From Candidatus Nomurabacteria bacterium (GTDB taxonomy: Bacteria > Patescibacteriota > Minisyncoccia > Phycocordibacterales > CAIZLB01), in NCBI GenBank assembly GCA_943356525.1, contig CALRFG010000005.1, positions 2,921 to 66,920 of the forward strand: a stretch of 64,000 nt of DNA. The letters are read 5' to 3'. Below the pieces are notes generated by a model. The model ran no database searches. It saw nothing but the letters and a program-made list of their open reading frames with translations, and was not told the DNA's origin. The position numbers and the translations under genes were made by a program. Below are positions 47,072-50,465 of the stretch, one piece after another (position 1 is the stretch's first letter; the number at the start of each line of letters is the position of its first letter).

Positions 47072-50000
47072 ATAGAAATACAAGGGTGGACGGTGGATGC
47101 CTTGACACAACATGGCGATGAAGGACGTAGCACGACAACGATAAGCCTCGGGGAGATGTCTAGCAATCGCTATATCCGGGGATTTCCGAATAGGGAAACC
47201 TATGAGAACTTGATTCTCATGTTTTAACATTAAGTTAATTCGCAAACTCAGGGAAGTAAAACATTTCAGTACCTGAAGGAAAAGAAAACAAGCACGTATG
47301 TGCACCATTTCCTAAGTAGCGGCGAGCGAAAAGGAAACAGCCCAAACCGTAGCTTTCCGATGCATCACATTTTTTATTTTTGATTTATCAAAAACATTAC
47401 GTTTGATGCATTGGGTAGCTTGGTGTTGTAGGGCAGTGGACGAATATTTATATTCAAAGAGTTACAAAGTATAAACTTAGCAGAATAAGCTGGAAAGCTT
47501 GACCCTAGAAGGTGATAGTCCTTTATGCGAAAAGTTTATATCTCTTACCACTGTTCCTGAGTACCCCAGGACACGAATAGCTTGGGGGAATCCAGCAGTA
47601 CTAACTGCTAAGGCTAAATACATGTTGTGATCGATAGTGAACAAGTACCGTGAGGGAAAGGTGAAAATTAGTCCGGGAGGACGATGAAATAATACTGAAA
47701 CCGTCACACCTACAAGGAGTCAGCGCGGGCATTTATGTCCGTCATGGCGTGCCTATTGAAGAATGAGCCAACGAGTTAATATATATGGCTTGGCTAAGAT
47801 CGAAAAGGTCGGAGCCACAGGGAAACCGAGTACTAATAGTGCGACCTTTGTCTTATATATTAGACCCGAAGCCAATGCGAGCTTATCATGGACAGGGTGA
47901 AGTCTGTCGAAAGACAGATGGAGGCCCGAACCCGTATGTCGTTCAACTCATTGGGATGATCTGTGATAAGAAGTGAAAAGCTAATCGAGCTTGGTAATAG
48001 CTGGTTCTCTCCGAAATAGCTTTTGGGTTAGCGTCACGTGTTCCTCTTAGGGGTAGAGCACTGGAAGAGTTCGACAGGGAGCAATCTCGCGAACTCTATC
48101 AAACTCCGAATACTAAGAGTTAAGAACGTGGCAGTTAGACCGTGGGGGCGAAGCTTCACTGGTCAAAAGGGAAACAGCCCAGATCCATACTTAAGGTCCC
48201 TAAATCTATGCTCAGTGCTAGTAAGGATGTAAGATTTCTTTGACAATGAGGAGGTTTGCTTAGAAGCAGCAATCCTTTAAAGATAGCGTAACAGCTCACT
48301 CATCAAGAGATTTTGCGCCACAAATGATCGGGGCTCAAGCATAGTACCGAAATTTGGGATTTGTGTATTCTTCGGAATACATGAGTGGTAGGAGAGTGTT
48401 TGCATCGCGATGAAGGAGAAGGGGTGACCCACTCTGGAGCATTGCAAAGTAAGAATGTTGGCACAAGTAACCACAATCGATGTGAAAAACATCGACGCCG
48501 AAAGATCAAGGTTTCCTCAGCTACGATTGTCGACTGAGGGTTAGTCAGGCCTAAGGGGATGGAGAGATCCGAACCCGATGGACACATGGTTAATATTCCA
48601 TGACTTTGATATAGAGTGACGGAGTGACGGAGTGTAGTATGTAACGCAGATTATTGAATTTCTGTTTGGGTTGTAAGATCGCAGCTTAGGTAAATCCGGG
48701 CCGCTGACTTTGATGTCACTATCAAGCAACTTGACGTAAGGTTACAAAGCACGCTTCCAAGAAAAGCTTCTAAACTTATCTATATTAAAACTGTACCGCA
48801 AACCGACACAGGTGATCAGGTCGAGTAGACCAAGGCGAACGAGTGAGAGGTCTTCAAGGAACTCGGCAAAAAAGCAACCGTAACTTAGGGATAAGGTTCG
48901 CCTACCGCAAGGTAGGCCTCAGCAAAAGTTTTTCCAGCGACTGTTTATCAAAAACACAGCTCCCTGCGAACTCGCAAGAGTATGTATAGGGGGTGACACC
49001 TGACCAATGCCAGAAGGTCAAATATTGGCGGTGACATATTTATATGGCTGCTGACTGATATAAGCCCTGGTGAATGTCGGCCGTAACTATAACGGTCCTA
49101 AGGTAGCGAATTTCCTTGTCGGGTAAGTTCCGACGCGCACGAATGGTGTAACGACTGGAAAACTGTCTCGAAGACTCGCTCGGTGAAAATGCAATAGCGG
49201 TGAAGATGCCGCTTACCTGCAGTTAGACGAAAAGACCCTAGAAGCTTCACTACAGCTTGGTATTGAATATACGTTTTTATTGCGTAGCATAGGTGGGAGA
49301 ATTTGAAGTGTAGATCTTGGTTTACATGGATTCGTCAGTGAAATACCACTCTATAACAGTGTATATTCTAACCTGAGAGGCAAAAACTCTCAGGAACAGT
49401 ATCTGGTGGGTAGTTTTAGTGGGGCGCTATCCTCCCAAAAAGTAACGGAGGAGTTTACTAAGGTCCACTAGGCGCGGATGGAAACCGTGCCGATAGCGCA
49501 ATGGCACAAGTGGGCTTAACTGTGAGACGTTAATGTCAAGCAGATACGAAAGTAGAACATAGTGAACCGACCTTTTGCATTAGATGCAGGGGAAGATTAT
49601 CTGACAAAAGCTACTCTAGGGATAACAGGCTAGTTCCGCCTAAGAGTCCTTATCGACGGCGGAGTTCGGCACCTCGATGTCGGCTCGACTTATCCTGGGG
49701 CTGGAGAAGGTCCCAAGGGTTTGGCTGTTCGCCAATTAAAAAGTCACGCGAGCTGGGTTCAGACCGTGTAGATACTAACAACGAACAATATGCAATAAAT
49801 GCCTTGCACAGGACTACGTAGTAGTCCGAGCAGAGCGGCTCATCGTAAGATGGGAACGTGTGCATTTATGAAATATTGTGAGTTGGTCTTTACACAGTCT
49901 GAATCCACACGAGGAAAATAAAATAACTAACAAAGAATGTTGAGATTAACCATTCTATTAAATTAGAATATTGCGGCGGTCATATGTAGAGATATATATG

Positions 50001-50465
50001 ATATAAAGTTAACTAATATCGGTGAAATCCTAGTGACGAAATGTCACGGACAATACCGAGGGAAGCAATAAGTAATTAAAGCACCCGTAGAGACTACACG
50101 TTAACCATCTTAACTCATACGAGAAAGATGATGATATAGTCCAATGCACACAGTAATGTGTGAAAGACATGCGCAAGACAGGTTGGTCTCCTATCTACTG
50201 CAGGCGTTGATATTTGAAGGGATTTGTCTCTAGTACGAGAGGACCGAGATGAACTGACCTCTGGTCTACCAGTTGTCGCGTCAGCGGCACCGCTGGGTAG
50301 CTATGTCGGGAATGGATAAGCTCTGAATGCATCTAAGAGCGAAGCCAGCCCTAAGATTAGATATCGTTATGAGGCCCGTGAGAGATTATCACGTTGATAG
50401 GCACCAGATGTAAGCATAGCAATGTGTTTAGTCGAGGTGTACTAATTAGCCCATACTATTAGGAA
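47072..50465 (+). rRNA. rrl: 23S ribosomal RNA, interrupted by an intron-like insertion in domain V.
   Basis: Conserved blocks GGTGGATGCCTTG...GCGATGAAGGACG (5' end), GTACCGTGAGGGAAAGGTGAAAA, CTAGTACGAGAGGACCG and GTACTAAT... (3' end). The ends are approximate. Confidence 0.9.
49769..50171 (+). mobile_element. Putative ORF-less group I intron inserted at the 23S L2593 (I-CreI/I-CeuI-type) site.
   Basis: About 400 nt interrupt the universally conserved ...GGGTTYAGAACGTCGTGAGACAGTTYGG... block. The 5' exon ends ...gggttcagaccgtg, the 3' exon resumes cgcaagacaggttggtctcctatctac, and the insert ends in G (...gacatg). No HEG-sized ORF is present. The boundaries are accurate to +/- a few nt. Confidence 0.55.

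What the first reader, a model, noticed from the sequence alone, without database searches (positions are those of the whole stretch)
49769..50171. About 400-nt ORF-less insertion at the 23S L2593 homing site (putative group I intron)
The universally conserved GGGTTYAGAACGTCGTGAGACAGTTYGG block is split. gggttcagaccgtg lies at 49755-49768, cgcaagacaggttggtc resumes at 50172, and ~403 nt sit between them, ending in G. From established knowledge, this is the I-CreI/I-CeuI group I intron insertion hotspot. Introns in rRNA genes are common in CPR-type genomes, often with LAGLIDADG homing endonucleases. Here no HEG-sized ORF exists; the only ORF is a 71-aa antisense one. That suggests a degenerate or trans-mobilised intron.
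Basis: partly seen in the sequence, partly recalled or inferred. Interest (0 to 1): 0.55.

Follow-up and report, generated by a model that had tools for sequence, protein, structure and literature searches.

The report
ORF-less group I intron in 23S rRNA
The 404-base interruption next to the catalytic centre of this candidate-phyla-radiation bacterium's 23S rRNA gene is a genuine, structurally intact self-splicing group I intron without a homing-endonuclease gene, a kind of element already known to be common in these bacteria.

Summary
The 23S rRNA gene (47067-50466) is interrupted after the U equivalent to E. coli U2593. The intron is 49768-50171, 404 nt; the 5' exon ends in U and the intron ends in G.

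Rfam's group I model matches 49960-50163 above its gathering score (65.5 bits against 50). On 25 related introns, my P1-P10 model is 94.7% paired, against 32-41% when the partners are slid. 41 of 73 pairs show compensatory changes.

There is no HEG-sized ORF and no detectable LAGLIDADG remnant. HEG-bearing relatives keep the gene in the P6 loop, which is only 21 nt here. The ribozyme itself does not look degenerate. The identical intron occurs in three independent assemblies.

Group I introns, and shorter ORF-less insertions, at the recurrent 23S sites of CPR bacteria, including 2593, are already published. This is therefore a new member of a known kind.

Two details go beyond the finding. This intron class has an enlarged P1 loop carrying a second strand complementary to 5' exon -13..-5. 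In this lineage and one sister species, the first hairpin also carries a 75-nt G+C-richer branched insert.

The parts
47067..50466 (+). 23S rRNA gene, the host of the intron. The 5S rRNA gene follows at 50593-50703.
   Evidence: Rfam RF02541 scores 2298.9 bits over model positions 1-2925; RF00001 scores 70.4 bits.
49755..49763 (+). 5' exon positions -13..-5 (GGGUUCAGA). This is the exon strand of the extra helix 'X', which pairs with intron 49898-49906.
   Evidence: 100% of cells are paired in 25 relatives, and one pair switches C-G to U-A in 5 sequences. A perfect 9/9 complement is present in 38/43 class-2a introns, against 2/35 class-1 introns and 7% of shuffles.
49764..49767 (+). 5' exon positions -4..-1 (CCGU), the exon strand of P1. 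U49767 is the E. coli U2593 equivalent and the 5' splice site.
   Evidence: E. coli rrlH alignment. CCGU/GCGG with U.G is invariant in 25/25 relatives.
49768..50171 (+). The group I intron, 404 nt.
   Evidence: The sequence is identical in three independent assemblies.
49768..49893 (+). Hairpin H1, which starts at intron base +1 and lies inside the enlarged P1 loop. The base stem pairs 49768-49779 with 49882-49893.
   Evidence: 9 of 11 base-stem pairs show compensatory changes. MFE is -43.5 kcal/mol with z = -5.6 on the + strand, against z = -2.7 on the - strand.
49795..49869 (+). Lineage-specific 75-nt G+C-richer branched insert in the tip of H1. An 8-bp closing stem (AUAAAUGC/GCAUUUAU) encloses two hairpins, GGACUAC-GUA-GUAGUCC and CUCAUC-GUAA-GAUGGG.
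   Evidence: It is absent from the closest relatives L090, L083, L006, L080, L121 and L136, and present with 1 substitution in the sister species L131/L132. There is no Rfam match and no other copy in the window, the loci or the viral contigs. Folding gives z = -3.5.
49898..49906 (+). 'IGS-A' (UCUGAAUCC), the intron strand complementary to 5' exon -13..-5. A 4-nt linker, ACAG (49894-49897), precedes it.
49952..49969 (+). Small hairpin H3 (AUUCUA-UUAAAU-UAGAAU), just upstream of the guide sequence.
   Evidence: Read from the sequences: there is a compensatory U-A to A-U change between the window and L131 at 49954/49967.
49971..49975 (+). P10 guide strand (UUGCG), which pairs with the first five bases of the 3' exon, CGCAA (50172-50176).
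   Evidence: It covaries with four 3' exon variants: CGUGA with UCACG, CGCAA with UUGCG, CGUAA with UUACG, and CGCGA with UCGCG. 2 of 5 pairs carry double changes, in 9 and 11 of the 25 sequences, and 97.6% of cells are paired.
49976..49981 (+). Internal guide sequence, the 3' strand of P1. GCGG pairs with CCGU, and G49976.U49767 is the splice-site wobble. The next two bases, UC, can extend P1 to 6 bp at the expense of helix X.
   Evidence: Read directly from the sequence. GCGG is invariant in 25/25 relatives. Short-loop relatives have the simple hairpin CCGU-N6-GCGG.
49980..50001 (+). P2, a 9-bp stem capped by the GNRA loop GAGA.
   Evidence: 8 of 9 pairs show compensatory changes.
50008..50105 (+). 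P3 (50008-50013 with 50100-50105). It encloses P4 (50019-50024 with 50054-50059), P5 (50028-50050), P6 (50060-50086, 21-nt loop) and the 5' strand of P7 (50092-50096).
   Evidence: Rfam alignment. Compensatory changes occur in 6/6 pairs of P3, 2/6 of P4, 2/3 of P5 and 1/3 of P6.
50106..50130 (+). P8, which follows P3' with no spacer, leaving no room for P7.1/P7.2.
   Evidence: 5 of 6 pairs show compensatory changes.
50137..50141 (+). P7 3' strand (UAGUC), within the conserved J8/7-P7 block GAUAUAGUCC. It pairs with GACUA at 50092-50096.
   Evidence: Invariant in 25/25 relatives. It matches the Rfam consensus.
50147..50162 (+). P9, a 6-bp stem capped by a GUAA loop. The terminal G (omega-G) lies at 50171.
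   Evidence: 5 of 6 pairs show compensatory changes. All listed relatives end in G.
50172..50176 (+). 3' exon bases +1..+5 (CGCAA), the exon strand of P10. The 23S sequence resumes here at the E. coli C2594 equivalent.

Best explanation
It is a self-splicing group I intron inserted after the U2593 equivalent, in the helix 93 loop of domain V of the 23S rRNA. The host is a Parcubacteria-type CPR bacterium.

Shown by sequence and comparison:
- The last four exon bases, CCGU (49764-49767), pair with the guide GCGG (49976-49979), giving the U.G wobble that marks the 5' splice site.
- The five guide bases just upstream, UUGCG, pair with the start of the 3' exon (P10).
- P2 to P9 form the usual two-domain core with the P3/P7 pseudoknot.
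- The intron ends in G50171.

Inferred from established group I chemistry:
- A free guanosine bound at P7 attacks after U49767.
- The terminal G then replaces it, and the freed 3'-OH of the 5' exon attacks after G50171.
- This joins ...GACCGU to CGCAAGACAG... and restores helix 93.

The intron has no homing-endonuclease gene. In HEG-bearing relatives of this class the LAGLIDADG gene sits in the P6 loop, which is 21 nt here. The intron is therefore inherited vertically, or could move only with an endonuclease supplied from elsewhere.

Two peripheral features account for its length. First, as in all members of its structural class, the P1 loop is a ~200-nt domain. That domain contains a hairpin starting at +1 and a 9-nt strand complementary to exon -13..-5. 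Together with GCGG this strand forms a split 13-nt guide, which I infer holds the 5' exon. Second, the tip of that hairpin has gained a 75-nt branched, G+C-richer insert. Only one sister species shares it, and I read it as a lineage-specific peripheral expansion.
For: - RF00028 scores 65.5 bits against a gathering score of 50, E = 2e-14, over model positions 1-253.
- The insertion lies exactly after the U2593 equivalent.
- On alignment A1 (25 introns with exon flanks), my structure has 94.7% of cells paired, against 32-41% for slid partners. 41 of 73 pairs have changes on both sides, and 0 of 500 shuffles reach the observed values.
- P10 covaries with four 3' exon variants.
- The 9-nt exon complement is perfect in 38/43 class members, against 2/35 in the other L2593 class and 7% of shuffles.
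- The intron differs by 4.7% from the sister-species copy while the exons differ by 0.3%. The differences include compensatory pairs in P5 and H3.
- There is no HEG: the largest ORFs are 71 aa antisense and 48 aa or less. tblastn with 40 relatives' ORFs gives nothing better than E ~0.08 among the intron rows shown, and nothing in the whole window at E <= 0.01. In the HEG-bearing class members L021 and L075, the gene lies between the P6 strands.
- The identical sequence occurs in three assemblies.
- Published surveys place group I introns and LAGLIDADG_1 genes at CPR 23S position 2593. They also report shorter ORF-less insertions at the recurrent 23S sites, and removal of such insertions from transcripts (PMC11270868).
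Against: - Splicing was not observed. No RNA data are available here.
- P1 (CCGU/GCGG) and P7 never vary among the relatives, so they carry no covariation support.
- The Rfam alignment of the first ~40 model positions (its P2) is poor and overlaps what I assign to P10/P1.
- The 5' exon is nearly invariant, so covariation for helix X rests on one position. That position changed in an estimated three or more lineages.
- The linker ACAG could also pair with 3 of the 4 P1 exon bases. An alternative continuous hairpin with a U-A pair at the splice site would therefore compete with P1.
- The function of the 75-nt insert is unknown.
Confidence: 0.9

Rival explanations
1. It is an expansion segment or an RNase III-type intervening sequence. 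In that case the extra RNA either stays in the mature 23S or is cut out without ligation, leaving a fragmented rRNA.
For: CPR and other bacterial 23S genes do carry such non-intron insertions at other sites (PMC11270868). This gene also has about 120 unexplained extra bases in domain I. No RNA data exist here.
Against: The element matches the group I covariance model above its gathering score. It has a U.G splice site, P10 and a terminal G. All its core helices covary. It splits the helix 93 loop next to A2602, at the peptidyl-transferase centre, where 404 retained bases are unlikely to be tolerated (inference).
Confidence: 0.04
2. It is a decaying, splicing-impaired relic of a once mobile intron. 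Under this reading the ~200 nt upstream of the Rfam hit are eroded homing-endonuclease coding sequence.
For: There is no ORF. The Rfam hit covers only the 3' half, 49960-50163. Degenerate ORFs are reported in CPR rRNA insertions (PMC11270868). Some relatives have 100-230-nt non-coding P6 loops that could be such relics.
Against: - The upstream 200 nt are structured RNA that is conserved across the class, with compensatory changes in H1 and H3.
- Translated comparison with relatives' LAGLIDADG proteins finds nothing.
- In this class the HEG sits in the P6 loop, not the P1 loop.
- Core pairings are kept by compensatory substitutions even between sister species.
Confidence: 0.06
3. The 75-nt G+C-richer piece (49795-49869) is a separate small mobile or functional RNA module that landed in the hairpin tip, not a gradual expansion of the hairpin.
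For: - It is bounded by an 8-bp inverted repeat.
- It is markedly G+C-richer than its surroundings (about 0.45 for 49790-49880, against 0.34 for the window).
- It sits next to a GCAA sequence; relatives have a GCAA tetraloop at the tip of the same hairpin.
- It differs by only 1/75 from the sister-species copy, while the rest of the intron differs by about 5.5%.
Against: - No second copy was found in the window, in 136 related loci or in the viral contigs. There is no Rfam match.
- The difference in conservation is not significant at these counts (1 observed against about 3.5 expected).
- The H1 tip is independently expanded to about 85-130 nt in several other lineages, some also G+C-richer and branched. 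This fits ordinary peripheral expansion.
Confidence: 0.15

Closest known systems
ORF-less and LAGLIDADG-bearing group I introns at 23S position 2593 of CPR/Patescibacteria (survey by Tsurumaki et al. 2024, PMC11270868; first reported in CPR by Brown et al. 2015, as cited there)
   Same: The host group, the insertion site and the Rfam group I classification are the same. HEG-containing and shorter ORF-less versions coexist at one site with very similar non-ORF sequence. My scan found more than 120 such loci, mostly CPR MAGs. The nearest are at 84-93% identity over the 3' ~290 nt of the intron, in Parcubacteria MAGs with the same trmD-23S synteny.
   Different: Nothing differs in kind. The two papers I searched do not mention the P1-loop domain or the exon-complementary strand, but I did not read their figures or supplements. 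The 75-nt hairpin insert is restricted to this species and one sister species.
Cyanobacterial and chloroplast L2593 introns (Synechococcus C9 and lividus, Thermosynechococcus elongatus; Chlamydomonas Cr.LSU, which encodes I-CreI)
   Same: The insertion site is the same, after U2593. A single-motif LAGLIDADG gene is present in the HEG-bearing forms. The conserved J8/7-P7 block GAUAUAGUC is shared (PMC1995217).
   Different: - Those introns have exon GAACGU, a short P1 loop with guide GCGU near the 5' end, and a ~65-nt P7.1/P7.2 extension (PMC1995217).
- In my set they have 76-123 nt between P7 and J8/7, against 31-63 nt in most of this class.
- The window intron has exon GACCGU and guide GCGG placed 208 nt into the intron. 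P8 abuts P3', so there is no room for P7.1/P7.2.
- Only 2/35 of that class have the exon-complementary 9-mer.
Engineered trans-splicing group I ribozymes with an extended guide sequence (for example the Tetrahymena and Azoarcus designs, PMC3895272 and PMC6155759)
   Same: The concept is shared: an additional antisense duplex with the substrate next to a short P1 strengthens and specifies substrate binding.
   Different: Those are artificial. The extension sits at the 5' end of the ribozyme and pairs with substrate downstream of the splice site. Here the extra strand is natural, lies inside the P1 loop and pairs with the 5' exon upstream of P1. This is a resemblance only, recalled from titles and abstracts.

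Membership tests
Group I catalytic intron (Rfam RF00028) | Covariance-model score at or above the curated gathering score | tested here: met
   65.5 bits against 50, E = 2e-14, model positions 1-253, window 49960-50163 (+).
Group I catalytic intron (Rfam RF00028) | Conserved core: P3-P8 and P4-P6 domains with the P3/P7 pseudoknot | tested here: met
   All helices can be drawn on the window sequence. Compensatory changes occur in P2, P3, P4, P5, P6, P8 and P9. P7 is invariant. 94.7% of cells are paired, against 32-41% when slid.
Group I catalytic intron (Rfam RF00028) | 5' exon ends in U, paired to a G of an internal guide sequence (P1) | tested here: met
   U49767.G49976 lies within CCGU/GCGG, directly upstream of P2. 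It is present in 25/25 relatives but never varies, so there is no covariation support.
Group I catalytic intron (Rfam RF00028) | The intron ends in G (omega-G), and the guide bases 5' of the wobble G pair with the 3' exon (P10) | tested here: met
   G50171 is the last intron base. UUGCG (49971-49975) pairs with CGCAA (50172-50176). The guide changes with the exon in four variants.
Group I catalytic intron (Rfam RF00028) | Guanosine-dependent self-splicing that yields ligated exons | not testable with these tools
   This needs in-vitro transcription and splicing, or RNA-seq across the junction.
L2593 rRNA intron (insertion after E. coli 23S U2593) | Insertion point homologous to E. coli U2593|C2594 | tested here: met
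   In rrlH of NC_000913.3 the U of GGGUUUAGAACGU is residue 2593. The window has GGGUUCAGACCGU|intron|CGCAAGACAG.
Subgroup IA3-type L2593 introns (cyanobacteria and chloroplasts, I-CreI lineage) | P7.1/P7.2 extension in the P7 region | tested here: not met
   P3' (50100-50105) is followed immediately by P8 (50106-50130), and P7 5' is 3 nt from P3'. The distance from P7 to J8/7 is 41 nt here, against 76-123 nt in the GAACGU class. The feature is as described in PMC1995217.
Mobile intron carrying a LAGLIDADG homing endonuclease | An intron-encoded endonuclease ORF (about 150-200 aa with the LAGLIDADG motif) | tested here: not met
   No sense ORF exceeds 40 aa. tblastn with relatives' HEGs gives nothing better than E ~0.08 among the intron rows shown, and nothing in the window at E <= 0.01. 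The P6 loop, where class members carry the HEG, is 21 nt.
Twin-ribozyme intron, or another known RNA embedded in the P1 loop | A second Rfam-recognisable RNA (such as the GIR1 branching ribozyme) in the extra sequence | tested here: not met
   cmscan of 49768-49990 against all 4227 families at E <= 10 found no match.
rRNA intervening sequence or expansion segment | A simple helix extension lacking the ribozyme core, splice-site pairings and terminal G | tested here: not met
   A ribozyme core, P1, P10 and omega-G are all present.

The most novel reading that the evidence does not exclude
The CPR-typical class of L2593 introns, with exon GACCGU, uses a split guide. A minimal 4-bp P1 (GCGG) is supplemented by a second, remote strand inside a ~80-200-nt P1-loop domain. 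That strand pairs with 5' exon -13..-5 and would stack on P1 to give a 13-bp exon clamp. It replaces the helix 93 pairing of the exon during splicing. This would be a natural counterpart of the engineered extended guide sequence, and I found no description of it. The window intron would further show that the hairpin of this domain can take up a 75-nt structured module.
Probability: 0.3. Interest if true: 0.5.

Novelty: new member of a known kind. Interest (0 to 1): 0.3.

Why it matters
For annotation, the 23S gene of this genome and its relatives should be recorded as two exons joined at 49767/50172. rRNA-based tools that do not allow for the intron will mis-size or split the gene.

Biologically it adds one more ORF-less member to the well-documented population of group I introns around the peptidyl-transferase centre of CPR ribosomes. 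CPR genomes typically have a single rRNA operon, so splicing of this intron is presumably essential (inference).

The more interesting by-product is comparative. The set of more than 40 related introns gathered here suggests that one structural class clamps its 5' exon with a second guide strand. If confirmed, that would be a small addition to group I intron architecture, and possibly useful for ribozyme design.

Tried and rejected
- HEG relic in the 5' half: rejected. There is no translated similarity, and in relatives the HEG lies in the P6 loop.
- A known RNA embedded in 49768-49990: there is no Rfam match at E <= 10.
- Assembly artefact: rejected, because three independent assemblies are identical.
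- The long helix formed by the exon, H1 and the ACAGUCUGAAUCC strand as the true P1: rejected. It would put a U-A pair at the splice site. The four bases opposite CCGU are not conserved as complements. GCGG sits directly before P2 with a covarying P10 guide next to it. Short-loop relatives have a plain CCGU-N6-GCGG hairpin.
- The first metagenome scan, with a 28-mer conserved in the close clade, found nothing. The second, with IGS-A plus guide, found one more relative, L121.
- A viral-contig scan for the insert found nothing.
- Literature searches for a natural split guide or exon clamp found only papers on engineered ribozymes.
- The MAFFT pairwise alignment of the whole 23S to E. coli mis-aligned the intron region. 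I used it only for the numbering of the exact motif and for the domain I insertion.
- The apparent stronger conservation of the insert than of the rest of the intron (1/75 against 18/329) is not significant, so I do not use it as evidence.
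Full report
**Observation**

Reading 49500-50500 confirms the split block. GGGTTCAGACCGT ends at 49767. It is followed by G49768 and about 400 unrelated bases that end in ...GACATG at 50171. CGCAAGACAGGTTGGTC then resumes at 50172.

Rfam places a complete bacterial 23S rRNA over 47067-50466 (2298.9 bits) and a 5S rRNA at 50593-50703. The 23S alignment carries a single ~410-nt insertion between model columns ...cAGaaCGU and ACAGuuC....

In E. coli rrlH (fetched) the motif GGGTTTAGAACGT|CGTGAGACAG places the T before the bar at residue 2593. 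The insertion is therefore exactly 'L2593'.

The I-CeuI site starts at E. coli position 1911. That enzyme does not belong to this site, whereas I-CreI-type enzymes do.

**Is it real?**

I looked up the flanking genes, trmD (45946-46662) and a 138-aa gene (51258-51674). The identical 404-nt intron is present in an NCBI MAG (GCA_943355205.1), a Logan assembly (SRR6475633) and an ENA assembly (ERZ28613768).

**What it is**

RF00028 (group I intron) matches 49960-50163 with 65.5 bits against a gathering score of 50, E = 2e-14.

I then scanned one genome per species for the conserved J8/7-P7 block, a short gap and the 3' exon. It also returned Omnitrophota, Eremiobacterota, proteobacteria, Thermosynechococcus and an Asgard archaeon.

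84 of these loci have both exon flanks, with insertions of 237-828 nt (plus one of 1853 nt) at the same site.

They fall into two main classes:
- **Class 1:** exon GAACGU, and an intron that starts AAAUUACAUUGCGU. This class includes the cyanobacterial type.
- **Class 2:** exon GACCGU, to which the window belongs.

The closest relatives are Parcubacteria MAGs (L090, L083, L006, L080) and a JGI metagenome contig (L121, which came from the second metagenome scan). The four MAGs match at 84-93% identity, but only from intron position ~106-127 onwards, and their introns are 324-352 nt.

**Structure**

On an alignment of 25 class-2a introns with exon flanks (A1) I drew P1, P10, P2-P9, the 5' hairpin H1 and an extra helix X, then counted pairs.

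- 94.7% of cells form standard pairs, against 32-41% when the 3' partners are slid by 1-3 columns.
- 41 of 73 pairs have changes on both sides.
- No shuffle out of 500 reaches the observed values.
- Compensatory changes occur in H1 (9/11 pairs), P10 (2/5), P2 (8/9), P3 (6/6), P4 (2/6), P5 (2/3), P6 (1/3), P8 (5/6) and P9 (5/6).
- P1 (CCGU/GCGG, with U.G at the splice site) and P7 (GACUA/UAGUC) are invariant.

The P10 guide follows the 3' exon through four variants: CGUGA with UCACG, CGCAA with UUGCG, CGUAA with UUACG, and CGCGA with UCGCG. This fixes GCGG at 49976-49979, directly upstream of P2, as the internal guide sequence. All listed relatives end in G. Window coordinates of every element were checked.

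**The homing endonuclease**

The 690-830-nt relatives encode single-motif LAGLIDADG proteins of about 150-220 aa. In the class-2a members L021 and L075 the gene lies between the two strands of P6.

The P6 loop of the window intron is 21 nt. tblastn with all those proteins finds nothing better than E ~0.08 among the intron rows shown (the output was cut), and nothing in the 64-kb window at E <= 0.01.

The intron is therefore ORF-less with no detectable relic, and its extra length is not HEG debris.

**Where the extra length comes from**

In class 2a the guide lies 58-257 nt into the intron, because the P1 loop is a multi-hairpin domain. Running 5' to 3', it contains:
1. Hairpin H1, starting at +1.
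2. A 4-nt linker.
3. A 9-nt strand (49898-49906, UCUGAAUCC) complementary to 5' exon -13..-5.
4. One or two small hairpins.
5. The P10/P1 guide.

The 9-mer is a perfect complement in 38/43 class-2a introns. The figure is 2/35 in class 1 and 7% in shuffled sequences. It switches G to A where the exon has U instead of C, in six introns with three different sequence contexts. It also uses a G.U pair, which only makes sense in RNA.

Together with GCGG it reads as a split 13-nt complement of the exon. I infer that it clamps the 5' exon and displaces the exon's helix 93 pairing. This is not shown.

An alternative continuous hairpin (exon plus H1 against ACAG plus the 9-mer), with a U-A pair at the splice site, would compete with P1. 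I rejected it as the catalytic P1, for the reasons given under 'tried and rejected'.

**The lineage-specific insert**

Relatives cap H1 with an AU-rich stem and often a GCAA or other GNRA loop. In the window, the stem CAAUAU/AUAUUG encloses GCAA followed by a 75-nt piece (49795-49869) that is G+C-richer than its surroundings (about 0.45 for 49790-49880). This piece has an 8-bp closing stem and two hairpins, one with a GUAA loop.

H1 folds with z = -5.6 on the + strand, against z = -2.7 on the - strand.

The trmD-23S synteny is conserved, so I used TrmD relatives to reach sister genomes:
- The 92%-TrmD sister (L131/L132) has the same insert with one substitution, GAUGGG to GAUGAG, which perfects a stem.
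- The 88%-TrmD relative (L136) has an unrelated AU-rich expansion instead.

No other copy of the insert was found in the window, in the loci or in viral contigs, and it has no Rfam match. H1 tips of about 85-130 nt have arisen independently in other lineages. I therefore read the insert as an ordinary peripheral expansion, and give a separate mobile module about 15%.

**Selection**

Between the window and L131 the 23S exons differ by 0.3% and the intron by 4.7%. The differences include compensatory pairs at 50033/50047 (P5) and 49954/49967 (H3). This pattern is expected for an RNA kept for its fold.

**Comparison with the literature**

L2593 introns with LAGLIDADG genes are described in Synechococcus and Thermosynechococcus, with a short P2, a short P5 and a ~65-nt P7.1/P7.2 extension (PMC1995217). 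The window intron has no room for P7.1/P7.2, because P8 abuts P3'. The distance from P7 to J8/7 is 41 nt here, against 76-123 nt in class 1. It therefore shares the site but not the structural subtype.

A 2024 survey of CPR rRNA insertions reports the following (PMC11270868):
- 45% of 23S insertions are group I introns.
- LAGLIDADG_1 genes occur at positions including 2593.
- Shorter ORF-less versions with very similar non-ORF sequence occur at the same recurrent 23S sites.
- Such insertions are removed from transcripts (citing Brown et al.).

The kind of element is therefore known. My literature searches did not turn up the P1-loop exon clamp, but they are far from exhaustive.

**Verdict**

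This is an intact, ORF-less group I intron at L2593 of a CPR 23S rRNA gene, a new member of a known kind and of modest interest. The possible split guide of its structural class is the only aspect that might be new.

Noticed in passing
window 7196-7324 (+): Rfam LOOT RNA (RF03000) match, 70.9 bits against a gathering score of 46.4, E = 2.5e-11.
   Followed up: no
window 45946-50703 and the whole window: The 23S and 5S genes are preceded directly by trmD, with ribosomal protein L10 and L7/L12 genes further upstream. There is no 16S gene in the window and ARAGORN finds no tRNA gene in all 64 kb, so the 16S is unlinked. The trmD-23S synteny is conserved in relatives down to at least ~81% TrmD identity.
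   Followed up: partly
window ~47347-47480: Pairwise alignment to E. coli rrlH shows about 120 extra bases in 23S domain I, near E. coli positions 272-291. These may be an expansion or intervening sequence. They have no group I match.
   Followed up: no
window 50758-51962: A 105-aa ORF and a gene pair with PF08780 (NTase_sub_bind) and PF01909 (NTP_transf_2) domains, which looks like a toxin-antitoxin pair, lie between the 5S gene and a 257-aa gene. The sister genomes L131/L132 and L136 have no called gene at this spot. There the 257-aa gene is the next gene called after trmD, about 1.2 kb closer than in the window. This is a recent ~1.2-kb gain or loss.
   Followed up: partly
window 49898-49906 with 49755-49763; loci L001-L136: One structural class of L2593 introns (exon GACCGU, mostly CPR) carries, inside an enlarged P1 loop, a 9-nt strand complementary to 5' exon -13..-5. 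It is perfect in 38/43 members, against 2/35 of the other class. With the 4-nt guide GCGG it would form a split 13-nt exon-binding site.
   Followed up: partly
loci L120, L074, L002, L058 (P6 loops): Some ORF-less class-2a relatives have 100-230-nt non-coding P6 loops, the position where L021 and L075 carry a LAGLIDADG gene. These are possible eroded HEGs.
   Followed up: no
locus L042 (MBAA01000200.1, labelled Promethearchaeota archaeon CR_4): A class-1 L2593 intron of 734 nt with a LAGLIDADG ORF lies on a 4.7-kb contig binned as an Asgard archaeon, with bacterial-type exon flanks. This could be a binning error or an inter-domain occurrence.
   Followed up: no
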